From: Patescibacteria group bacterium
Lineage (GTDB): Bacteria; Patescibacteriota; Microgenomatia; UBA8517
Assembly: GCA_026416845.1 (NCBI GenBank)
Contig: JAOAEL010000003.1
Coordinates: forward strand, 5,447-69,446
Length of the DNA stretch: 64,000 nt
Direction: 5' to 3'
Part shown: positions 9,542-59,869 of the stretch, piece by piece
Layout: each line of letters opens with the position of its first letter
How positions within the stretch are numbered: the stretch's first letter is position 1
The notes under the pieces: generated by a model
The model's database searches: none
What the model saw: only the letters and a program-made list of their open reading frames with translations
Told to the model about the DNA's origin: nothing
Translations under genes and position numbers: made by a program

Positions 9542-11866
9542 TTACAATTTTGCTCTCCTTGCAATCTCTTTTTCTACAAGCCTTACATCTCTTCCATATT
9601 TAAGCCTGCTGTTTTCCTTTATAATTTGTGCTACTCTTTCGTCTCTGTTTTTTATCTTCTGCACAATATCAGCCGAGAGCTTCATGGAAAACTGGGGGAC
9701 AGGTTCATTTTGTACAATGGTACGAACATATACATGATATTTTTCGATATTTAACAAATCTTCCTCCGAGAAAACCGGTGAAAATTCGCGAGCCAAATAA
9801 TTGGCATCCGTAACACCTACGCGATAAGTAATAATAGTTCCAACATTCCCAATTATTGCGTTTTTCACTTCTTCGTCAATTTGCCCAATAAATTGGTTTG
9901 CCACAGTAAGTGCAAGTTTGTACTTTCTGGCCTCGGAAAGTATTTGGGCAAAATCAGGAGTAGCAAAATTCTGAAATTCATCTACATATAGATAAAAATC
10001 ACGTCTTTGATCTTCTGGAATATCTGCTCTACTCATAGCCGCCATTAATATCCTTGGAACCAAAACAAGTCCTAAAAAACTGGAGTTTTCCTCTCCCAAC
10101 TCACCTTTCGAAAGATTTATCAATAAAATCTTTCCCTGATCCATAACTTCTCTAAAATTAAAAGATGATTTAGATTGTCCAATAATATTTCTTATCAAAC
10201 GATTGGTAACAAACCTTCCAAATTTTGAGGTAATATAATCAAGAACTTCAGATTTGTGAAAATCAGAAGTTTGAGCGATCTGATCTGTCCAATAACGTCT
10301 AACAATTGGGTCTTGCACCTTCGGCAAAAGTTCTTGCACATAGCGAGAATCAGTAAGAGCGCGCATTAGTTCCACAAAGGTGGTTCCGGGTTCTGACAAA
10401 ATAGTAAGAATTGCGTTTCTTACAGCATGCTCAAAACGAGGTCCAACTATTCCAGTTTTGTAAGGGTCAAAAAGTTTATACATCATGTTGATTACTGATG
10501 TGGCAACAAAGTGTTTCTGATCCTCCGTATAAGCCTCCATCAAATTAAGTCCCATAGGACGCTCAGAATCTGATGGTCTGAAATAAATCACATCATCAAC
10601 TCTTTCAAGCGGAATCATCCCCAACAACTCTTCCACCGCATCTCCATGCGGATCCATAAAGCATAGTCCTTTACCAGCTTCAATATCTTGCAAAATCAAG
10701 CTTTGCAAAAATTTAGTTTTACCAGTACCAGTTTTTCCTATAATGTACATATGCCGTTGTCTATCAAATTCAGAGATATATACCTTTCGCTCTATTCCAC
10801 GATAAATGGAAGTTCCCAAGAAAAGACCTTCTGTTGGAATTTCAGCTGGAGCAGGAGCTGATTTGGCATAAAGCCAATGAATGTGCGGTGTTGTAATTTG
10901 CTTATTTGGAAAGTGAAATATTGTTGCCAATTCTTCAGAATTTAGTATTGACACCCTGTTACTGCCAAAATTGAACATCGGTTGATATCGATACAAAAAA
11001 TCATCTATAAAATCTCCCTTTTTTATTATCGTTCTTTTGCCAAAACCATTAAACTCGCCATTAAACGCCTCAAAAGCGCTCATTATGTTTGTCAAATGCG
11101 CTTTTGCAGAAGGTTCATCATTTGCTACAGTAACAATGCGAATAGAAGTTTCAAATCCTGGCTTTGAGCATTTATTTTCCACTGCTTCCAAAGTTCTGGA
11201 AGAAACTGAAAATTTTGCCTTTTCTGGATCGGCTTCCTGTTTTTTTGTTGTAGCGATGAAATCTCTACCCTGTTTTTGCCAAGAATCATTAACCGGAGAT
11301 ATTAAAACCTGTATCGCAGCAGCTTCATCGTGGCCCATCTTAGCAAGAGCAGAAGTAATAACTGCCAAAGGATCAGTTGGTAAATCTTTAAAAACCTTTA
11401 TAGGGTAATAATTTTCCTTCTTAAGTTGCAAAGATGCATAAGCAACTTTGCCATGTTCTGTAAATATATTGTATTCTTCAACTTGTTTGATTTCCGCGTC
11501 AGGATAACAGCCATGGATTTGCTTTTCTATGAGATCTCTAAACTCATTGGGTGTCCATACATAAAACCGTATATCTTCAGGGCGAGCAACCAATTCAAAT
11601 GACACTGCAGGTTCCGTCGAATACTTTCTGCCGCTTTTGATAGAATAAAGCGCCGCAAAAAGTTGTTCCATTGCATCAATCCTAATTTCGTTTCCTTTGG
11701 GAACCGCTATCTGAAGTAAAACTGAATTTAAAGATCTTTCCTCTCGACCACGATTTTTGATAAAAACAAAAGCTATATAAACTCCAGCACCCAATAAAAG
11801 CACAAAAATTACCAAAAAAAACAGTGTTAAAAGCAAAATCGTAGGATCAAAAAAATCATTTCCCAT
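9542..11866 (-). CDS. TraD/VirD4/VirB4-like (type IV secretion-type) P-loop NTPase with N-terminal transmembrane anchor
   Basis: 774 aa. N-terminal TM helix (ILLLTLFFLVIFVLLLGAGVYIAFVFI). Walker A IIGKTGTGKTKFL and Walker B FYLYVDEFQNF. Domain order (membrane anchor, all-alpha region, RecA-like ATPase with C-terminal extension) resembles T4CP/AAA_10/DUF87-type conjugative ATPases. Confidence 0.5.
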   Translation of the reverse strand: MGNDFFDPTILLLTLFFLVIFVLLLGAGVYIAFVFIKNRGREERSLNSVLLQIAVPKGNEIRIDAMEQLFAALYSIKSGRKYSTEPAVSFELVARPEDIRFYVWTPNEFRDLIEKQIHGCYPDAEIKQVEEYNIFTEHGKVAYASLQLKKENYYPIKVFKDLPTDPLAVITSALAKMGHDEAAAIQVLISPVNDSWQKQGRDFIATTKKQEADPEKAKFSVSSRTLEAVENKCSKPGFETSIRIVTVANDEPSAKAHLTNIMSAFEAFNGEFNGFGKRTIIKKGDFIDDFLYRYQPMFNFGSNRVSILNSEELATIFHFPNKQITTPHIHWLYAKSAPAPAEIPTEGLFLGTSIYRGIERKVYISEFDRQRHMYIIGKTGTGKTKFLQSLILQDIEAGKGLCFMDPHGDAVEELLGMIPLERVDDVIYFRPSDSERPMGLNLMEAYTEDQKHFVATSVINMMYKLFDPYKTGIVGPRFEHAVRNAILTILSEPGTTFVELMRALTDSRYVQELLPKVQDPIVRRYWTDQIAQTSDFHKSEVLDYITSKFGRFVTNRLIRNIIGQSKSSFNFREVMDQGKILLINLSKGELGEENSSFLGLVLVPRILMAAMSRADIPEDQRRDFYLYVDEFQNFATPDFAQILSEARKYKLALTVANQFIGQIDEEVKNAIIGNVGTIITYRVGVTDANYLAREFSPVFSEEDLLNIEKYHVYVRTIVQNEPVPQFSMKLSADIVQKIKNRDERVAQIIKENSRLKYGRDVRLVEKEIARRAKL

Positions 11867-50364: not shown

Positions 50365-52338
50365 ATGAAAAAACTAAAAAAAAATCAGATTAAAAAGCAA
50401 TCTTTTATATTAGTTCTAACTGCGTTTTTAACTTTATCGCTAATAATAGCAATATATTTGCAAATAAACAGGAAACAAAAACCTATAGAACAAACAATTG
50501 CCACTACTTTAGTAAATGTTTCTCCAATTACAGATTCTATTTTGTCAGATTTTCCTTTCCCAAGAGGCAAATCAGCTCCTTTTGGTTGGTATAGTTGTGG
50601 AGGAGCAGAAGGAAACCCGCCAAGCTATTCTAATATCATGTCCCCAAATAATCCTTGTATTGTTGATAAGTACACTGTTATATTTCCAAGTTTTGGTTTC
50701 GGGGTCAGAAAAACATCTCCGCCTTACAACACCGGAAATCCTTTGATTACAAAAATGAGAGATCTTGATCGTGCAAAACAACATCTTGTTTACCTTGGTT
50801 GCAATTGGAGGAACCCTGATCCTAATGCTACTGGAAACAATTATTACTATAATGCAGCTTGCGAAGATCCTGTTCTTTGGGAAGAAGAAATAAAAAAATT
50901 AAAAGATCAAGGAGTAACAGAAAATGACTTTTTCGCATTTTACCAAACAGATGAACAACACCATTATAATGCACAATTAGCAATGTATAATGCTGTTAAA
51001 AAATACTATCCAAATGTTCCAGTGTTTGCATCACTAAATGACAAAACAAATCTCACCTACAGAGTACCTAAAATAGACGTTTTGGTCGCACAAAGTTATC
51101 CTTATGCTAATGGTGAAAAAATTGCTGGCACATATCTTCGTTTAGCACGAACAATACCTAGATGGCATAATAATAAAAACAACATAAGAATACCTGTTTT
51201 TATGGCAACAGAATCTTATGGAATTTGTAAAGTCGTTCCTGATAATCCTTCTTTAAACACTATTGAAAAAATAAAAAACAGAATAAAAGTTAGTAACATA
51301 ATGGGAATAATGGCCGGAGCGCAAGGAATCATTTCTTACTTTATGGGAACAGAATACGAAAAAGATTGCAACGACAAGTGTGCCAGGTCAACTCCATGTG
51401 AAATCGCACATAAAGAGTTTTATCCTATTTATAATCACATTTGGCCTTGGATTTTAGCAGGAAAAAGAGAAGAATTGCCTGTAAATATTCATAGCGGAGT
51501 AATGATTTCAAGATTAAATAAAACCAGCTTTGTTTATGAACCCAAAAACAACGATATCGGTCCGTTAGAATATAAAACTGTTGTTTCTTGGAAATTTTTA
51601 AACGATTCCAATCAACCTTTAATTTTAGTTGCAAGCCTACTGGAACCATCAGAAACTGTTGAACCAAACAATATAACAATTCAAAATGTACCAAATGGTA
51701 TATACGCAGTTATTGGAGAAAATAAAAATATTGCTGTAACTAGCAATACAATACAAGACACAATTTATCCTTATGGATATCGAATATATCAGTTTGTAAC
51801 TGGTTTTACACCAACACCAACACCAACTCCAACTCCAACACCAACACCAACACCAACACCAACACCAACACCAACTCCAACTCCAACACCAACACCAACT
51901 CCAACAAATTTTGTCAAGATATTAAGAAAATTTAGTAATGCTAAATACTCTATCTCCACTGTTTCTGAAAACATGCAACCATTTACAGACAGGTCAATAA
52001 CTTTAGTATCGGTACCCAAAAAATACTTAGGAGATGTAATACTTCGAACCCCTGTTGAAGATAGAAATAAAACTGAGACAAGATTAATAGAATTGAATAT
52101 AAGTCACAAATCTCAAGTCTATATCGCGTTTGACTCTAGAGTGCCAAGCACAAGTTTACCTTCTTGGCTTTCAGAAAAAAATGGCTGGACAAAAACAAAT
52201 GACGTGCTTCAGTTAAGTGAGTCATCAAAAAGTCATACCTTATATGTAAAAGAATACCCTGCAGGAAATCTGATTTTAAGCGGAGCCAGCCTTCCAGATT
52301 ATTACTTTAATTACTATGTGATAATAAAAAAGATTTGA
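50365..52338 (+). CDS. Secreted/anchored multidomain protein: clan GH-A-like (beta/alpha)8 glycosidase-like domain, (TP)n linker, C-terminal ~145-aa beta-rich module
   Basis: N-terminal signal/anchor (FILVLTAFLTLSLIIAIYL). Central domain has FFAFYQTDE (strand-4 acid/base position, where the paralog has NEP) and VFMATESYG (strand-7 nucleophile TE-x-G pattern). The two are ~90 aa apart, as in clan GH-A. Then about 17 TP dipeptide repeats and a C-terminal beta-rich module of unknown function (CBM- or cohesin-like is not established). Confidence 0.45.
   Translation: MKKLKKNQIKKQSFILVLTAFLTLSLIIAIYLQINRKQKPIEQTIATTLVNVSPITDSILSDFPFPRGKSAPFGWYSCGGAEGNPPSYSNIMSPNNPCIVDKYTVIFPSFGFGVRKTSPPYNTGNPLITKMRDLDRAKQHLVYLGCNWRNPDPNATGNNYYYNAACEDPVLWEEEIKKLKDQGVTENDFFAFYQTDEQHHYNAQLAMYNAVKKYYPNVPVFASLNDKTNLTYRVPKIDVLVAQSYPYANGEKIAGTYLRLARTIPRWHNNKNNIRIPVFMATESYGICKVVPDNPSLNTIEKIKNRIKVSNIMGIMAGAQGIISYFMGTEYEKDCNDKCARSTPCEIAHKEFYPIYNHIWPWILAGKREELPVNIHSGVMISRLNKTSFVYEPKNNDIGPLEYKTVVSWKFLNDSNQPLILVASLLEPSETVEPNNITIQNVPNGIYAVIGENKNIAVTSNTIQDTIYPYGYRIYQFVTGFTPTPTPTPTPTPTPTPTPTPTPTPTPTPTPTPTNFVKILRKFSNAKYSISTVSENMQPFTDRSITLVSVPKKYLGDVILRTPVEDRNKTETRLIELNISHKSQVYIAFDSRVPSTSLPSWLSEKNGWTKTNDVLQLSESSKSHTLYVKEYPAGNLILSGASLPDYYFNYYVIIKKI
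51808..51906 (+). repeat. Hexanucleotide microsatellite (ACACCA/ACTCCA)n encoding a (Thr-Pro)n linker
   Basis: About 16.5 tandem 6-bp units seen directly in the sequence. On the opposite strand it gives a spurious GV-repeat ORF. Confidence 0.9.
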
Positions 52339-55454: not shown

Positions 55455-55559
55455 TACAAAACAAACAAATCAAATAAAATATAAATCTGTTTAAATACTA
55501 TTTCAATATTAATCACTCAAATTTTAATTCGTGGAATAACACAAGCAATCTTAAAGTAA

Positions 55560-56075
55560 AACTTAGCTTCTCTTTTCTCTTAAAGCGTCAACCAAAGGAC
55601 TTGGTGAAATTTTTGGATCTGAAGAGACATCAGCCATGGCTAACAAAAATCTAATCATCTCATATCCATTATATACAGCGCCTATTCTAATCATATTTAC
55701 TTTGTCCATAATTTTTTATCAATTCAGCAACCTTACGCAAGTTTTCAGTAAAAGAACCTATTTGAGTATCCAAAACTAAACTTATGGTACCTCTAATTCT
55801 ATTAGCATATTCATCACTATCATAAAATCCAAAAGCGGATATTACACTTCCTTGAAAGATCCGAAAACATCTGATTCATCATAATATCTTGTCCCAAAAA
55901 CAAATCCTATTGGTTTTAATCTCTCTAAAGGTGTGGCAATCGCAATTTCCACCTTTAATCTACTATAAATTTCATCTGAAAAAATATAACTCGCAAATAA
56001 AAAATACTCTGTCTCCAAACAATCAACATATTTAGTAATCTTTCCAGAAATTCTTCCAGAAATTCTTAGTAACAA
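55560..56075 (-). pseudogene. Frameshifted remnant of an unidentified gene
   Basis: Three consecutive minus-strand frames read ...LETEYFLFASYIFSDEIYSRLKVEIAIATPLERLKPIGFVFGTRYYDESD.. / SVISAFGFYDSDEYANRIRGTISLVLDTQIGSFTENLRKVAELIKNYGQSKYD / VYNGYEMIRFLLAMADVSSDPKISPSPLVDALRE, all without stops. This fits a ~170-aa gene broken by two frameshifts. Confidence 0.3.
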
Positions 56076-56342
56076 AGGACAAAAGAAACATGATCTTTAA
56101 GCCTAGCTTGTTTTACTTGGTGCAATATTATTAAAAAAAGCCAATTTCATTATTAACTTTGTTGTTGAAACATTCGCAAATGTTGCTTGGCTTTGGTTGT
56201 TTTTATAATATCTTCGTACGGATTTATAGAAAACAATATCATCAATCCTATAACTACCAAACTTGCAGCATAAAAAATTTGTGGATACAAATTAAAGCAA
56301 ACTAAAACAATAAGCAATATTCTGTCAAGCTCAGTAAGTAAA

Positions 56343-57005
56343 TTAGATATATAAATAAATTAACAAAAACGCCAAAATTGCCAAAATAGCAACAATTATA
56401 ACTCCCAAACTAATAATCCACGCTAGTACTTTCCTCGCTTTACTAACCTCTCTAACCTGAAGAACTACTGTTTTTGCAATTTTGTCATGCCATCCCTGGT
56501 TTTTCTTATCAAACAAAATCCACAAAAATCCAATCATAAAAAATAATGAAGAAATTGTCTTGCCAACCACTTCTCTTAGTATCACTCTAAACCAAGTAAT
56601 CTCTGCCCCGTCTTCTGATCTAACCTCCAAACCAACAAATTGCTTGCCAAATGTCGCATTTTTAAACCTTAACAAAAAAACACCATAAAAAACAGAAATT
56701 AAGCTGGATAAATTCTGAGCCATATTCCAATTTTGTAATACACTTAAGTTATTACTCCTATAATTACTTGCCTCATAAAGCAAAGCGTAATAAAAAGGAA
56801 ATAAGAAAAAAATAACCATGACAAAAATTATCAATGCATCAAGAATAGCTGCAATAAAACGAAGTGATAAACTTGCATATGCGTACGTCTCCCTAGTACC
56901 AGTAGTACAAGTCTGACCCTCGGCAACCGCAGCAACATTATTATTACTTTTAGTTTGATTTACCGATCCTATGTTTTCACTTACCTCACTTGTGTGTTCG
57001 TACAT
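56343..57005 (-). CDS. RDD-family membrane protein
   Basis: RFIAAILDALIIFVMVIFF ... R ... NQGWHDKIAKTVV: RDD-domain pattern (conserved Arg and two Asp in a three-TM domain). S/T/N-rich N-terminal tail. Confidence 0.5.
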   Translation of the reverse strand: MYEHTSEVSENIGSVNQTKSNNNVAAVAEGQTCTTGTRETYAYASLSLRFIAAILDALIIFVMVIFFLFPFYYALLYEASNYRSNNLSVLQNWNMAQNLSSLISVFYGVFLLRFKNATFGKQFVGLEVRSEDGAEITWFRVILREVVGKTISSLFFMIGFLWILFDKKNQGWHDKIAKTVVLQVREVSKARKVLAWIISLGVIIVAILAILAFLLIYLYI

Positions 57006-57162: not shown

Positions 57163-57900
57163 CTATAACTGATAATTTTTCAACCAGATCACATAATCAA
57201 TTCCATCTATCAATCCATTGTTGTCAAAATCACCATATCTCGCTCCTTTTTTAGCTTGCAAATAATTATTTAACCATATCACATAATCACTTCCATCTAC
57301 TTTATTGTCACAATTTGCATCTCCGGCTTTTGTACAATAAATAGACGGAATTGGACTGGTTGACATTAGACTGTTATTAATACAAGTTTCTTTCACATCT
57401 TTAATAACTCCATGCAACTGCGGCGAGTTAAAAAGATATTGACGATACTCTGCAGGATTTCTCCATGGGTAATAAATTAATCCATCAAGAGTTCCTGTAC
57501 TAATTATTTCACAAGTAAAATTTTTCAATTGCGAATATGTCGGCATTATATAATTACCACTTGGAGCTCCACCAAAAGTCTGAACCGAAAAAAATAATTG
57601 TGCATTAATGCCTCTTTCTTGTAAAATTTTTCTATCATTTTTTACACTCTCGATAGCATCCTGACAACTTCCCTCTGCGCCACCAAAACAATGAAGCCAA
57701 ACCGCAATTATATCTCCCATACCATTTGTAATTTTGGCACTAGAATTTTGTTTCTCTAAATCCGCAATTCCATCCATATAGACAAAAACTGGAACGTCTG
57801 GCGCTATTCTCTTCATTGCGGCATAAAGATTCCTGATGTCATCATTTGCTGTAGCCAAGTTGAGACCAGCTGACCAATATGGCTCATTAATATTGAACAC
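57163..57900 (-). CDS. Dockerin-containing protein with N-terminally truncated, probably non-catalytic GH-A-like domain (paralog of 50365-52338 core)
   Basis: C-terminus DANCDNKVDGSDYVIWLNNY ... DFDNNGLIDGIDYVIWLKNY gives two 12-residue Ca-binding loop plus helix repeats, a type I dockerin pattern. N-terminal 190 aa aligns with the catalytic-like domain of 50365-52338 (APDVPVF/YPNVPVF, DIIAVWLHCF/DVLVAQSYPY, FFSVQTFGG/VFMATESYG) starting exactly at the strand-4 NEP motif. GTG start. The in-frame upstream reading (..ALIKSCLRIIIVLVVFNINEP) continues as a beta strand until a stop at 57964-57966. Confidence 0.5.
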   Translation of the reverse strand: MFNINEPYWSAGLNLATANDDIRNLYAAMKRIAPDVPVFVYMDGIADLEKQNSSAKITNGMGDIIAVWLHCFGGAEGSCQDAIESVKNDRKILQERGINAQLFFSVQTFGGAPSGNYIMPTYSQLKNFTCEIISTGTLDGLIYYPWRNPAEYRQYLFNSPQLHGVIKDVKETCINNSLMSTSPIPSIYCTKAGDANCDNKVDGSDYVIWLNNYLQAKKGARYGDFDNNGLIDGIDYVIWLKNYQL

Positions 57901-58498
57901 TACAAGTACAATTATTATCCTTAAACATGATTTAATTAATGCATATTCACCCCAAGACTTGCCTCAATACCGTTTCGCAAACAACACGCGGTTTTACTTG
58001 ACATATAATCTTAAATACCACAATTATCTAATCACTTCAGATAACTTCCCAAAACATCTCTTTGGAAGCAAAGATTCCATCACAAAATTTAATTCATGTG
58101 ATTTTACACAAACCATATCTTGAACATCAACTGTACCGCGTCATGCCATTAAAAGAACTTTAGATTGTGCAAAAACAATTTGATTAGAAAGAAAAAAAAG
58201 ATAAAAATGTCTTAATTTCAAGCATTTTTTGTAAAATCCTATAACCTAATTTATTTCTAGTTTAATTTGCTGTCTTTACATCTGGGTTTTGATAGATGAA
58301 ATTTCAATTTATGGAAATTTAGTTTGCGTTATTTTTCTCTAAGACAGAAAAAGCCTGACAAAAATTAAACAAATAAAAAACATATAATGAAAAACAACCT
58401 AATTTTAATTATTTTAAATATACAAAAAGAAACTAACCTTTATCTAAATTAACTATTATTATAGTGTTATCAATTATAGTGTTAGCAATAAGCTTTTT

Positions 58499-59869
58499 AT
58501 GGATAACCAACTAATAACAAGTATTTGGGGAGATGAAGGATTTAGCGCAATTTTGTCAATGAGGCCAATACCAGAAATTTTAAAAATTGTCTCTCAAGAT
58601 ACATCTCCTCCCCTTTGGAATATTTTGCTACATTGCACTTTTCAGCTTTTTGGTACAAGTGAAGTTGTAATAAGAAGTCTATCGTTAATTTTCTACATTC
58701 TGGCAATAATTTTTACATTCAGAATCGGATCGATTTTGTGGAGTAAAAAAACAGGCGCGATTGCCGCTAGTCTTACAGCTCTAAATCCATTTTTCTTTAT
58801 GTACGCGTTTGAAGGTCGCATGTACTCTATTCTCGCGCTTGGAGTAACAGCTTCTATGTACCATTTCTTAAAGATCATCACTCGTGAAAAAGGTGAAATA
58901 ACAAAAACAACAACAAAAATCGGCTATGTTTTTTGGACTCTTTGGGCTTTGTACTCGCATCATTTTGCAACATTTGCACTTGTTGCGCAAGGTTTGTGGT
59001 TTTTATACGAAATCGCTTTGGGAAATCGCAAGAACGGTCGTATCTTATTTAAACTTTTCCTTTTTGTAGGACTCGGCTATATCCCATGGATCTGGCCACT
59101 TTACATGCAAATTACAAAGTTAAGTAGCGGCTTTTGGCTTGGCAAACCCGACTATGAAGATCTGAAAATCTTAATATATGACTACTTGGCGGAAGGAATA
59201 AAGAGCCTTGATTATAAAATTCCACTTCTGAATCTGCCAATTCATAAATTAGCTTTGTACTCCGTTTTTGGCATTTTGCTAACTCGCAAATGGTGGAAGG
59301 GGATCAAAAAAAGTTTGTTTCTTCTTTTATGGTTTTTCGCGCCAATCGCCACTGTTTGGATTATTTCACAATATTTCACATCAATTTTTTACAATCGCTA
59401 TCTTTTATTCACAATACCAAGCGCTATGCTTATACTGGCTTCACTAAGATCAAAATTATCTATAATTCCAATTTCATTAACAATAATTATCTTTGGCATA
59501 ATTGATTTTCATTATTTTGTAAATCCAACAAAAATGCCCTTCCGTGAATATTCAGCTTATGTAAAAAATATTTTAAGCGAGGATGAGAATATCTTTTTAA
59601 TTAATTGGAATTCAAGCGCTCATCATTTATGGGAATCAAAATACTACAAAATTACAGCACCTTTGTACCTGCCAAACGGAAACAATTTGCCTTATTATGT
59701 TGGCACTGCCTTAATGACAGAAGAAGATATAATACGAAAGCTTCCCAACGCTTCAAAAATTGGTGTAATAACGTCTGGAAACCCAGATGAGGTTGTCTTT
59801 GAAGGCTACAAAAAAACTGAAATGAAAAATTTTGAAGGTTTGAAATTTTTGTTGTTTGAGAAAGGATAA
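58499..59869 (+). CDS. GT-C superfamily membrane glycosyltransferase (ArnT/PMT-like)
   Basis: 456 aa, ~11 TM helices, first extracytoplasmic loop with D/E-containing motif (WGDEGFS) typical of GT-C enzymes using polyprenyl-phosphate sugars. Confidence 0.5.
   Translation: MDNQLITSIWGDEGFSAILSMRPIPEILKIVSQDTSPPLWNILLHCTFQLFGTSEVVIRSLSLIFYILAIIFTFRIGSILWSKKTGAIAASLTALNPFFFMYAFEGRMYSILALGVTASMYHFLKIITREKGEITKTTTKIGYVFWTLWALYSHHFATFALVAQGLWFLYEIALGNRKNGRILFKLFLFVGLGYIPWIWPLYMQITKLSSGFWLGKPDYEDLKILIYDYLAEGIKSLDYKIPLLNLPIHKLALYSVFGILLTRKWWKGIKKSLFLLLWFFAPIATVWIISQYFTSIFYNRYLLFTIPSAMLILASLRSKLSIIPISLTIIIFGIIDFHYFVNPTKMPFREYSAYVKNILSEDENIFLINWNSSAHHLWESKYYKITAPLYLPNGNNLPYYVGTALMTEEDIIRKLPNASKIGVITSGNPDEVVFEGYKKTEMKNFEGLKFLLFEKG

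What the first reader, a model, noticed from the sequence alone, without database searches (positions are those of the whole stretch)
57163..57900. Type I dockerin-like module on an N-terminally truncated, nucleophile-lacking paralog of the secreted GH-A-like enzyme
Two canonical 12-residue Ca-binding loops plus helices (DANCDNKVDGSD.. and DFDNNGLIDGID..) end the protein. The N-terminal domain aligns with 50365-52338 but has Thr where the paralog has the putative nucleophile Glu (VQTFGG versus ATESYG). It also lacks strands 1-3: an in-frame stop lies upstream, the beta-strand-like sequence continues before the GTG start, and no signal peptide is visible. Dockerins imply a cohesin-bearing partner and cell-surface assembly. 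Finding one in a CPR-like genome on a probably non-catalytic or decaying carrier is notable.
Basis: partly seen in the sequence, partly recalled or inferred. Interest (0 to 1): 0.55.

Follow-up and report, generated by a model that had tools for sequence, protein, structure and literature searches.

The report
Broken gene for dockerin-tagged surface enzyme
The dockerin tag is real, but it sits on the surviving rear two-thirds of a broken gene for a secreted sugar-enzyme-like protein, so in this candidate-phyla-radiation (CPR) bacterium it is most likely a gene relic, not a working cell-surface part.

Summary
The ORF 57163-57900 (minus strand, 245 aa; NCBI MCX7928472.1, "hypothetical protein") ends in a genuine dockerin-like module. 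It has two 12-residue Ca loops, each followed by a helix. Pfam Dockerin_1 scores below threshold (18.6 versus 22.9 bits), but the best solved-structure matches are dockerins, and it aligns without gaps to above-threshold dockerins of relatives.

The rest of the ORF is strands 4 (end) to 8 of an unannotated, secreted, clan-GH-A-like (beta/alpha)8 barrel family (about 110 clusters, no Pfam model).

"Thr instead of the nucleophile Glu" is off by one residue. The equivalent residue is Gln, which is in 101 of 108 family members and is never Glu. So it is a family trait, not decay. The 657-aa neighbour is only a remote relative.

The truncation is real, but the 5' third was not deleted. A degenerate in-frame remnant lies at 58057-58188, and four in-frame stops lie between 57964 and 58143. 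The signal peptide is lost.

In intact relatives a membrane-anchored, weakly cohesin-like protein is encoded directly downstream. The 64-kb window has none.

One puzzle remains: the 3' part looks fully conserved while the 5' part is eroded.

Most likely this is a pseudogene. Dockerins and cohesins in CPR bacteria are already published.

The parts
57163..57900 (-). Surviving 3' ORF (GTG start, 245 aa plus TAG). It holds the end of strand 4 to helix 8 of the barrel, a linker and the dockerin-like module. It is annotated in NCBI as hypothetical protein N2558_02195 / MCX7928472.1.
   Evidence: The AF2 model has pLDDT 89.6 and four full barrel strands (39-41, 64-68, 101-107, 140-144) after a 2-residue stub of strand 4. 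A C-half family HMM built without this sequence scores 163 bits, the same as intact members.
57166..57330 (-). Dockerin-like module (res 191-245), made of two F-hand repeats.
   Evidence: Pfam Dockerin_1 E=0.0022, 18.6 bits, below the gathering score. PDB best hits are dockerins. It aligns without internal gaps to the dockerins of P0025, P0021, P0008 and P0040, which pass Pfam's threshold. It is 59% identical to a Gottesmanbacteria protein that UniRef names 'Dockerin domain-containing protein' (P0003). Helices 203-214 and 233-242 appear in the AF2 model.
57286..57321 (-). Ca-binding loop 1, DANCDNKVDGSD (res 194-205).
   Evidence: Asp/Asn occupy loop positions 1, 3, 5, 9 and 12.
57196..57231 (-). 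Ca-binding loop 2, DFDNNGLIDGID (res 224-235).
   Evidence: The DNA of the two repeats (57172-57209 and 57262-57299) is 89% identical over 38 nt.
57883..57885 (-). Codon of Glu6 in NINEP. This is the family-invariant Glu after strand 4, at the acid/base position of clan GH-A.
   Evidence: Glu is in 100 of 102 family members. The family HEP motif aligns to NEP of a PDB chain named as having a GH2 catalytic domain.
57580..57582 (-). Codon of Gln107 in VQTFGG, the last residue of strand 7. This is the position of the clan GH-A nucleophile, occupied by Gln throughout the family.
   Evidence: Gln is in 101 of 108 members and never Glu. Strand 7 is 101-107 in the target model and 223-229 in P0008. 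The HMM alignment puts this Gln opposite E283 of the 657-aa protein.
57901..57963 (-). In-frame extension upstream of the GTG that is still homologous to the family (end of helix 3 and most of strand 4: GKSWGEYALIKSCLRIIIVLV). It has no ATG, GTG or TTG start.
57964..58056 (-). 31 in-frame codons with no recognisable similarity in any frame. They carry three stops: TGA 57964-57966, TAA 57994-57996 and TAA 58024-58026. The length matches the helix 2 / strand 3 / loop region of relatives.
   Evidence: The plus strand was also tested.
58057..58188 (-). Degenerate remnant of the N-terminal part (end of the leader, strand 1, helix 1, strand 2), in the same frame as the ORF. It includes a TGA at 58141-58143 at the Gly of the family YYG motif.
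   Evidence: tblastn with the N-part of the closest relative (L024) gives E=3e-6 with 17 of 44 identical. Smith-Waterman score is 65 against shuffles of 22.9 +/- 3.9, reached by 0 of 1000 shuffles.
58162..58221 (-). Possible former start (TTG 58219-58221) and signal-peptide-like stretch MKLRHFYLFFLSNQIVFAQS. This is inferred only.
   Evidence: Read from the frame-0 translation. The total of 353 codons from here to the stop fits family lengths (326-390 aa). There is no statistical support.

Best explanation
The ORF is the still-open 3' two-thirds of a gene that once encoded a secreted protein. That protein had a signal peptide, a roughly 265-aa (beta/alpha)8 barrel of an unannotated clan-GH-A-like family, a short linker and a C-terminal dockerin.

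In this genome the 5' third has decayed in place. A degenerate remnant lies in the same frame, and four in-frame stop codons (2 TGA, 2 TAA) interrupt it. What remains begins inside strand 4, at a GTG.

A product made from it would lack the signal peptide and strands 1-3. It could neither close the barrel nor reach the cell surface, where a Ca-dependent dockerin works. It is therefore most likely a pseudogene (inferred).

How intact relatives most likely work is partly shown and partly inferred:
- The protein is exported.
- The barrel binds or cleaves a glycan using the invariant Glu after strand 4. It has no carboxylate nucleophile on strand 7, where a Gln is invariant. This fits a mechanism that needs only one acid, such as substrate-assisted hydrolysis or lytic transglycosylation.
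- The dockerin holds the protein on a single-pass membrane protein with a weakly cohesin-like domain, which is encoded directly downstream.
- That partner gene is absent next to the relic.
For: Family and truncation:
- A profile search finds 110 cluster representatives. In full-length ones the match starts at residue about 125-190.
- Members have N-terminal signal or anchor sequences. Their accessory domains are typical of surface and glycan proteins: Dockerin_1 in 15 of 109, plus SLH, T9SS tail, CBM9 and CBM96.
- AF2 of the homologue P0008 gives pLDDT 90.4, eight beta/alpha units and two dockerin helices. Most of the top Foldseek hits are clan GH-A barrels (GH164 at E=6.7e-9, then GH72, GH26, GH2, GH39, GH5).

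Decay in place:
- The in-frame N remnant has E=3e-6.
- The four in-frame stops are mapped.
- TGA is a true stop in this genome: it ends 10 of 45 genes, including metG and GAPDH.
- There is no start codon in the homologous extension.

Disrupted relatives:
- The three closest relatives are also disrupted: L001/L020 by a frameshift, L022 by a TGA at a conserved Trp, and L024 by an internal deletion plus a stop.

Genome context:
- The syntenic sister contig L019 lacks the gene and has a degraded RDD gene at the same spot.

Dockerin:
-.

Partner in relatives:
- A coh1 or coh2 domain protein lies directly downstream in L001, L020, L002, L004, L014 and L018.
- Support for a cohesin relationship is weak: Pfam Cohesin at E=0.024 and E=0.066, PF00963 precomputed on 6 of 12 close homologues, and PDB cohesin 5g5d at E=0.024.
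- None is present in the window.
Against: - The decay is strikingly uneven. The 3' part (266 open codons) scores like intact members (163 bits) and is 62% identical to its closest relative. The N remnant is 39% identical (Fisher p=0.0085) and scores 0.3 bits.
- At the stop density seen upstream, about 12 stops would be expected in the 3' part (P of none about 4e-6). A simple, uniformly neutral pseudogene does not predict this.
- NCBI annotates the ORF as a normal CDS.
- No expression data are available.
- Only 64 kb of a contig of about 152 kb, and an unknown fraction of the genome, could be searched for a cohesin or for an intact second copy.
- The substrate and chemistry of the barrel family are untested.
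Confidence: 0.6

Rival explanations
1. The 3' ORF is kept by selection as a protein in its own right. It would be a leaderless half-barrel (strands 5-8) plus dockerin, perhaps dimerising or pairing with another fragment.
For: - The C-half HMM score equals that of intact members, and all family-invariant residues are retained.
- No stop occurs in 266 codons of an AT-rich gene, while the 86 codons upstream carry four.
- Three of the four closest lineages are broken in the same strand 3 / helix 3 loop, each leaving a C-terminal ORF of similar extent.
Against: - There is no signal peptide, so a Ca-dependent extracellular docking module would stay in the cytoplasm.
- A half barrel exposes its core.
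- The start is GTG, used by only 3 of 45 genes here.
- No partner gene is adjacent.
- The sister genome L019 has lost the gene altogether.
- The search query was itself the C-terminal part, which biases hits towards such ORFs.
Confidence: 0.2
2. It is a relic whose 3' part was recently overwritten by gene conversion or recombination with an intact copy elsewhere in the genome. This would make the 3' part look conserved.
For: - The family occurs as tandem or multiple copies in other genomes (L001 and L013).
- This would explain the uneven decay without needing a function.
Against: - No second copy lies in the 64-kb window.
- The protein database holds no close relative above 62% identity.
- Homology fades within a few codons of the TGA at 57964-57966 rather than at a clean recombination junction.
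Confidence: 0.08
3. The C-terminal repeats are a generic EF-hand or other Ca-binding motif, not a cohesin-binding dockerin.
For: - The Pfam score is below the gathering threshold.
- The canonical Ser-Thr recognition pairs are absent (Gly-Ser and Gly-Ile instead).
- No cohesin lies in the window.
Against: - Only Dockerin_1 is hit in Pfam; no EF-hand or RTX family appears.
- PDB best hits are dockerins.
- It aligns without gaps to threshold-passing dockerins at the same position in homologues.
- Weakly cohesin-like proteins lie directly downstream in six related loci.
Confidence: 0.05
4. The truncation is an assembly or sequencing artefact, and the real gene is intact.
For: This is a metagenome-assembled genome, and the closest relatives come from low-coverage contigs.
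Against: - Four separate stops, loss of the YYGxD and WP motifs, and 31 unrecognisable codons cannot come from a few read errors.
- Both flanks are syntenic with L019, so a chimeric join is unlikely.
Confidence: 0.03
5. A full-length protein is still made by reading through or recoding the stops.
For: Two of the stops are TGA. One relative (L022) has a single TGA exactly at a conserved Trp.
Against: - Two of the four stops are TAA.
- TGA terminates 10 of 45 genes here, including conserved ones.
- The N-part has lost its invariant motifs and scores 0.3 bits.
Confidence: 0.02

Closest known systems
Dockerin modules (Pfam PF00404), such as the enzyme-borne type I dockerins of cellulosomes
   Same: - Two tandem repeats of about 22 residues, each with a 12-residue Ca loop (Asp/Asn at positions 1, 3, 5, 9, 12) running into a helix.
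- The two repeats are nearly identical, as in dual-binding-mode dockerins.
- The module is C-terminal and follows a linker.
- The best solved-structure hits are dockerins.
   Different: - It scores below the Pfam threshold.
- Positions 10-11 are Gly-Ser and Gly-Ile, not Ser-Thr.
- A Cys pair flanks loop 1 (CTKAGDANC), with a similar pair in a CPR relative (P0003) and in one L001 protein.
- The helix motif DY.IW..NY is shared with other CPR dockerins.
- The carrier here has no signal peptide, and no cohesin is nearby.
Clan GH-A (beta/alpha)8 glycoside hydrolases (GH164 beta-mannosidase 6t5o, GH26 lichenase 2cit, GH72, GH2, GH39 PslG, GH5)
   Same: - The fold (Foldseek E down to 6.7e-9, TM 0.45-0.63).
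- A Glu directly after strand 4 in an (N/H)-E-P motif, which aligns to NEP of a PDB chain named as having a GH2 catalytic domain.
- Aromatic residues on strand 8.
   Different: - Sequence identity is about 11%, and the barrel matches no Pfam or NCBIfam model.
- The nucleophile position at the end of strand 7 holds an invariant Gln, never Glu.
- The target ORF keeps only the end of strand 4 and strands 5-8.
TIM-barrel glycan enzymes that need no enzyme nucleophile: the Cwp19 lytic transglycosylase of C. difficile (5oq2; PMC6016235), and GH18 chitinases and GH56 hyaluronidase (substrate-assisted; own knowledge)
   Same: These are the best Foldseek hits of the target's own model (Cwp19 at E=1e-4, then GH18 and GH56 at about 4e-3 to 5e-3). 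They share the one-acid logic suggested by the Glu/Gln pair.
   Different: The matches are weak (TM 0.3-0.46) and made with a partial barrel. No residue-level superposition could be obtained. No activity is known for any member of the family.
Reported cohesin and dockerin proteins of Patescibacteria
   Same: These are CPR genomes encoding dockerin-bearing surface proteins, some with cohesins:
- an essential dockerin protein, SEML1_0315, in Southlakia (PMC10633639);
- expressed cohesin and dockerin proteins in Shapirobacterales, and a 'cellulosome' reported in Roizmanbacterium (10.1101/2021.08.21.457207).
   Different: Those reports rest on domain annotation. The specific barrel family, the enzyme-then-anchor gene pair and the broken state of this copy are not described there.

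Membership tests
Dockerin (PF00404) | Reaches Pfam's gathering score for Dockerin_1. | tested here: not met
   18.6 bits against a cutoff of 22.9, E=0.0022, covering profile positions 1-54 of 57. NCBIfam dockerin_GC scores 14.9 against 29.
Dockerin (PF00404) | Two tandem F-hand repeats: a 12-residue Ca loop with Asp/Asn at positions 1, 3, 5, 9 and 12, followed by a helix. | tested here: met
   Loops at res 194-205 and 224-235. Helices 203-214 and 233-242 in the AF2 model at pLDDT 87-95. The module aligns without gaps to threshold-passing dockerins of homologues. PDB best hits are dockerins.
Dockerin (PF00404) | Carried by a secreted protein. | tested here: not met
   The ORF starts inside strand 4 and has no hydrophobic N-terminus. 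Only a degenerate, stop-interrupted leader-like stretch lies upstream. Full-length relatives do have signal or anchor sequences.
Dockerin (PF00404) | A cognate cohesin is encoded in the same genome. | tested here: inconclusive
   None lies in the 64-kb window (tblastn, Pfam on candidate proteins, and six-frame HMM searches). The rest of the genome could not be fetched. Relatives have weakly cohesin-like anchors directly downstream.
Type I dockerin in the strict sense (C. thermocellum type) | Ser-Thr type recognition pairs at positions 10-11 of each repeat, and binding to type I cohesins (own knowledge of the family). | tested here: not met
   Positions 10-11 are Gly-Ser and Gly-Ile. Binding cannot be tested with these tools.
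Clan GH-A glycoside hydrolase | A complete (beta/alpha)8 barrel. | tested here: not met
   It is met for the family: P0008 model and Foldseek. The target ORF has only a stub of strand 4 plus strands 5-8.
Clan GH-A glycoside hydrolase | Acid/base Glu at the end of strand 4 (N-E-P). | tested here: met
   NINEP in the target. Glu is in 100 of 102 members and aligns to NEP of a solved chain named as having a GH2 catalytic domain.
Clan GH-A glycoside hydrolase | Nucleophile Glu at the end of strand 7. | tested here: not met
   Gln is in 101 of 108 members and never Glu. It is the last residue of strand 7 in both models.
Close paralogue of the 657-aa protein (50365-52338) | Significant sequence or profile similarity over the domain. 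| tested here: not met
   BLASTP E=0.009 over 24 aa. hhalign probability 2.8%. Family HMM 12 bits over res 188-286 only, and the reverse HMM is not significant.
Pseudogene | Homologous sequence interrupted by stops or frameshifts relative to intact relatives. | tested here: met
   In-frame N remnant at E=3e-6. Four in-frame stops. Invariant N-terminal motifs are lost.
Pseudogene | No purifying selection on the remaining sequence. | tested here: inconclusive
   The 3' part looks fully conserved. No close relatives are available for a dN/dS estimate.

The most novel reading that the evidence does not exclude
The barrel is the founding example of an undescribed clan-GH-A-like family. Its canonical nucleophile is always Gln, and in CPR bacteria it is displayed through a minimal two-gene dockerin/cohesin-like pair.

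In several lineages, including this one, the C-terminal half (strands 4-8, with or without the dockerin) persists under selection after the gene is broken in the same strand 3 / helix 3 loop. That would make it a recurrently retained half-barrel product rather than plain decay.
Probability: 0.12. Interest if true: 0.6.

Novelty: new member of a known kind. Interest (0 to 1): 0.3.

Why it matters
For this genome it matters little. The dockerin should not be counted as evidence of a working surface assembly, and the ORF should be flagged as a probable pseudogene.

The by-products are more useful:
- An unannotated family of about 110 clusters of secreted GH-A-like barrels, with an invariant Glu/Gln pair in place of Glu/Glu. 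It is spread over Patescibacteria, Chloroflexia, Bacteroidota, Gammaproteobacteria and Thermoplasmata MAGs.
- A conserved gene pair, a dockerin-tagged enzyme followed by a membrane anchor with a weakly cohesin-like domain. This gives a simple, testable model for how small-genome CPR bacteria pin enzymes to their surface.

Tried and rejected
- An N-half family HMM and Smith-Waterman scans against 89 family N-halves found no remnant upstream. I first concluded that the 5' part had been deleted. This was overturned when the N-part of the closest relative (L024) gave a significant in-frame match.
- The 31-codon unrecognisable middle is not a double frameshift, since the other frames show nothing. 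It is not an inversion either: the plus-strand hit is a single distant member, reached by 4 of 300 shuffles.
- TGA recoding is rejected.
- Promoter and terminator scans gave counts no higher than shuffled sequence. Rfam found nothing. No flanking repeats or mobile-element ends were found.
- The genome shows almost no Shine-Dalgarno-like motifs upstream of its genes, so the lack of one before the GTG says nothing.
- A mixed profile of the putative cohesin domains found nothing relevant in PDB. The coh2-only profile likewise found nothing. hhalign of coh2 against coh1 gave only 11.8% probability.
- The contig could not be extended beyond the window. P0114's contig is not syntenic.
Full report
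**What is at the coordinates.** The feature is an ORF on the minus strand, 57163-57900, with a GTG start, 245 aa and a TAG stop. The identical protein is in NCBI as MCX7928472.1, "hypothetical protein N2558_02195" of a "Patescibacteria group bacterium" MAG, on a 151,731-bp contig. The window has 34% G+C. The gene's G+C (35%) and third-position G+C (26%) are like those of its neighbours. TGA, TAA and TAG all serve as stops: TGA ends 10 of 45 genes, including metG and GAPDH. So the standard bacterial code applies.

**The dockerin-like module.** The protein ends with DANCDNKVDGSD (res 194-205) and DFDNNGLIDGID (res 224-235), each followed by DYVIWL.NY.
- A loop pattern scanned over all six frames of the 64-kb window matches only these two sites.
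- Pfam finds only Dockerin_1. It covers profile positions 1-54 of 57 at E=0.0022 and 18.6 bits, below the gathering score of 22.9. No EF-hand or RTX model is reported.
- phmmer of the last 63 residues against PDB sequences gives dockerins as all the best hits: 8x39 at 2e-5, ScaH dockerin 8ajy_B at 0.0036, then 5nrm_B, 5m2s_B and 2vn5_B.
- The module is 59% identical to the dockerin of a Gottesmanbacteria protein (P0003). That protein reaches Pfam's threshold and is named "Dockerin domain-containing protein" by UniRef.
- It aligns without internal gaps to the C-terminal dockerins of barrel-family members that pass the threshold: P0025 at 44.6 bits, P0008 at 30.8, and P0021 and P0040 at about 25.
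- The AF2 model of the ORF itself (pLDDT 89.6) has a disordered linker at 180-186 and two helices (203-214, 233-242), each starting inside a loop, at pLDDT 87-95.
- At DNA level the two repeats are 89% identical over 38 nt.

I therefore accept "dockerin-like". I do not accept "type I" as a specific type. Positions 10-11 are Gly-Ser and Gly-Ile rather than the Ser-Thr pairs of the classical type (own knowledge), and no partner was tested.

**The carrier domain.** A profile of the ORF and its best homologue was searched against 1.84 billion cluster representatives. It found 110 proteins (66 below 1e-10). In the full-length ones the match begins at residue about 125-190.
- These proteins start with signal or anchor sequences.
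- The barrel matches no Pfam or NCBIfam model.
- Accessory domains are those of surface and glycan-active proteins: Dockerin_1 in 15 of 109, Metallophos in 9, plus SLH, T9SS sorting tail, CBM9, CBM96 and Ig-like domains.
- AF2 of the member P0008 with the family alignment gives pLDDT 90.4, eight beta/alpha units and two dockerin helices.
- Foldseek against PDB returns mostly clan GH-A barrels at the top. GH164 beta-mannosidase 6t5o has E=6.7e-9 and TM 0.50. It is followed by GH72 Gel4/Gas2, BT_0435 (4h41), GH26 lichenase (TM up to 0.63), GH2 glucuronidases, PslG and GH5, at about 11% identity.
- The family profile also hits, weakly, a PDB chain named [quoted passage not shown] (E=0.005) and chains named "Endoglucanase" (E=0.02). 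In the printed alignment of the first of these, its NEP faces the family's HEP.

So "GH-A-like" is right at the level of fold.

**The "missing nucleophile".** Across the family, Glu after strand 4 is present in 100 of 102 members. The last residue of strand 7 is Gln in 101 of 108 and never Glu. Strand 7 is 223-229 in P0008 and 101-107 in the target model, so Gln229/Gln107 sits where clan GH-A has its nucleophile. The family HMM aligns "lvQtFa" with "ATESYG" of the 657-aa protein, placing Gln opposite Glu283, and "hEP" opposite "DEQ". The substitution is a defining family trait, not a lesion of this copy.

A barrel with one acid and an amide suggests chemistry that needs no enzyme nucleophile, or binding only. 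In line with this, the best Foldseek hits of the target's own partial model are:
- the lytic transglycosylase Cwp19 (5oq2, E=1e-4; PMC6016235);
- BT_0435;
- GH18 chitinases;
- a GH56 hyaluronidase.

This is a weak lead, not a result.

**Relation to the 657-aa protein.** BLASTP gives E=0.009 over 24 residues. Profile-profile comparison gives probability 2.8%. The family HMM gives 12 bits over residues 188-286, and the reverse search is not significant. The 657-aa protein has only four real homologues, one of them with a CBM60. The two share at most superfamily-level ancestry, so "paralog" is not supported.

**The truncation.** The ORF begins with the last residues of strand 4 (MFNINEPYW). Homology continues for 21 codons upstream (GKSWGEYALIKSCLRIIIVLV) to an in-frame TGA at 57966-57964, with no start codon in between.

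My first tests found no trace of the N-terminal half further upstream. The closest relative of the barrel, P0006 (62% identical over 126 aligned residues), lies on Logan contig L024. With the N-terminal piece of that gene as query, the region 58188-58057 gives a significant match in the same frame as the ORF:

- target: SNQIVFAQSKVLLMA*RGTVDVQDMVCVKSHELNFVMESLLPKR
- L024: SNNSSPAQSNRLKYYGTDEVAIEDLAYMKSQGVNFVMTSMWPNR

The match has tblastn E=3e-6 and Smith-Waterman score 65, against 22.9 +/- 3.9 in shuffles (0 of 1000 reach it).

The 31 codons between this remnant and the ORF extension match nothing in any frame or strand. Their length fits the missing helix 2 / strand 3 region. In-frame stops lie at 58143-58141 (TGA, at the Gly of the YYG motif), 58026-58024 (TAA), 57996-57994 (TAA) and 57966-57964 (TGA). 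A TTG at 58221-58219 followed by MKLRHFYLFFLSNQIVFAQS may be the old start and leader. That would give 353 codons in all, within the family range, but this is inference only.

The 5' third was therefore not deleted. It decayed in place.

**Context.**
- Neighbours are an RDD-family membrane protein (56343-57005, minus) and a divergent PMT_2 glycosyltransferase (58499-59869), followed by GT4 and UbiA genes.
- A syntenic contig from a related organism (L019, 73-79% nucleotide identity in the flanks) has only 776 bp between the 496-aa gene and PMT_2. It holds a degraded RDD remnant and no trace of the target.
- So this is a variable, eroding spot. Here it holds two non-coding stretches, 888 bp at 55455-56342 and 535 bp at 57964-58498.

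**State of the closest relatives.** All three are broken too:
- L001/L020 (P0002) has a -1 frameshift in a G5 run after NNWDISGG, identical in two contigs.
- L021-L023 (P0007) has a single TGA at the conserved Trp of TPW.
- L024 (P0006) has lost helix 3 and strand 4 and then runs into a stop.

Intact members exist further out (P0004, P0005, P0008 and others).

**The partner.** In L001/L020 the broken enzyme is followed by:
- a small dockerin-repeat protein;
- a 378/394-aa paralogue with a single dockerin-like repeat;
- two membrane-anchored proteins whose domain I call coh1.

Evidence that coh1 is cohesin-like is weak: it hits Pfam Cohesin at E=0.024, six of its twelve close homologues carry a precomputed PF00963 hit, and its profile's only real PDB hit is the cohesin 5g5d at E=0.024.

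In L002, L004, L014 and L018 (Patescibacteria, including Woesebacteria and Amesbacteria, and one MAG labelled Gammaproteobacteria) the enzyme carries a two-repeat dockerin of the same CPR type. It is followed directly by a single-pass membrane protein with a second conserved domain, which I call coh2. Its only Pfam hit is Cohesin at E=0.066. This enzyme-then-anchor pair in six loci is the best evidence that these dockerins dock onto a cohesin-like anchor. The cohesin assignment itself stays below threshold.

In the window there is no coh1, coh2 or Pfam-Cohesin match. This was checked in the candidate secreted proteins and in the six-frame translation. The rest of the genome could not be reached.

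**What does not fit.** The decay is lopsided.

| Measure | 3' part | 5' part |
|---|---|---|
| Family half-HMM score | 163 bits (intact members 164-175); HMM built without the target | 0.3 bits (intact members 60-78) |
| Identity to closest relative | 62% (78 of 126) | 39% (17 of 44) |
| In-frame stops | 0 in 266 codons | 4 in 86 codons |

- The identity difference gives Fisher p=0.0085.
- At the upstream stop density, about 12 stops would be expected in the 3' part (P of none about 4e-6).
- Three explanations are possible: the 3' ORF is still under purifying selection, it was refreshed from another copy, or the 5' damage came from a few large events. I cannot decide between them with the window alone.
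- Three of the four closest lineages are broken within about 15 residues of the same loop. This may be chance: TGG to TGA is the easiest nonsense change, and my query favoured C-terminal ORFs. I record it as unexplained.

**Verdict.**
The dockerin is genuine, and the carrier is a truncated GH-A-like barrel without a signal peptide.
- The "lost nucleophile" and the "paralog" are misreadings.
- The most likely explanation is a pseudogene of a once-secreted, dockerin-anchored glycan-active protein, with its partner absent locally (confidence about 0.6).
- A retained function of the 3' ORF is the main rival (about 0.2).
- Dockerins and cohesins in CPR bacteria are already in the literature, so the finding itself is of modest interest.
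- The unannotated Glu/Gln barrel family and the enzyme-anchor gene pair are the parts worth following up.

Noticed in passing
L001:779-4493 and L020:797-4721 (JGI sample 3300009034): A compact cluster holds the broken barrel enzyme, a 104-aa secreted protein and a 378/394-aa paralogue. All three end in a single dockerin-like repeat (GDFNGDGEVDLLDFEIFRDIYVE.L), that is, half a dockerin. Two membrane-anchored, weakly cohesin-like proteins follow. Single-repeat 'half dockerins' next to cohesin-like anchors may be a minimal docking system.
   Followed up: partly
L002:4164-5594, L004:10734-11942, L014:10685-12193, L018:11158-12894: A conserved domain of about 150 aa (here 'coh2') lies after an N-terminal membrane anchor, always encoded directly downstream of the dockerin-tagged barrel enzyme. 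Its only Pfam hit is Cohesin at E=0.066, and there is no PDB sequence hit. One fragment (P0201) joins this domain to a dockerin.
   Followed up: partly
L022:2457-3455 (also L021, L023); L001:1150-1175; window 57964-57966: Three of the four closest family members are interrupted within about 15 residues of the same strand 3 / helix 3 loop (TPW.W..NNWDISGG). Two have a TGA, one of them exactly at a conserved Trp codon, and one has a -1 frameshift in a G5 run.
   Followed up: partly
window 50365-52338: This is a 657-aa secreted protein with a long Pro-Thr linker and a C-terminal domain of unknown kind. It has only four real homologues in 5.8 billion clusters, one of them carrying a CBM60. It has invariant DEQ and ATESYG motifs spaced like a GH-A acid/base and nucleophile, and no Pfam match.
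   Followed up: partly
window 55455-56342 and 57964-58498; L019:15365-16141: There are two unusually long non-coding stretches for a CPR genome (888 bp at 29% G+C and 535 bp at 26% G+C) around the RDD gene and the relic. The sister contig has only 776 bp here, and its RDD gene is degraded, whereas RDD is intact in the window.
   Followed up: partly
window, all genes: Only 3 of 45 genes (one of them the target) have any Shine-Dalgarno-like motif in the 25 nt upstream. 40 of 45 genes start with ATG. Stop usage is TAA 27, TGA 10, TAG 8.
   Followed up: no
window 9542-11866 (minus strand): A 774-aa membrane ATPase matches the type IV secretion coupling-protein domains TrwB_AAD_bind and TraG-D_C.
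   Followed up: no
L004:8612-10744, L014:8441-10648, L018:6662-11152: In other Patescibacteria the barrel is fused behind a calcineurin-like metallophosphoesterase domain (9 of 109 family members). In L018 it is also fused behind beta-helix and other domains, in a 1496-aa protein with an internal dockerin.
   Followed up: no
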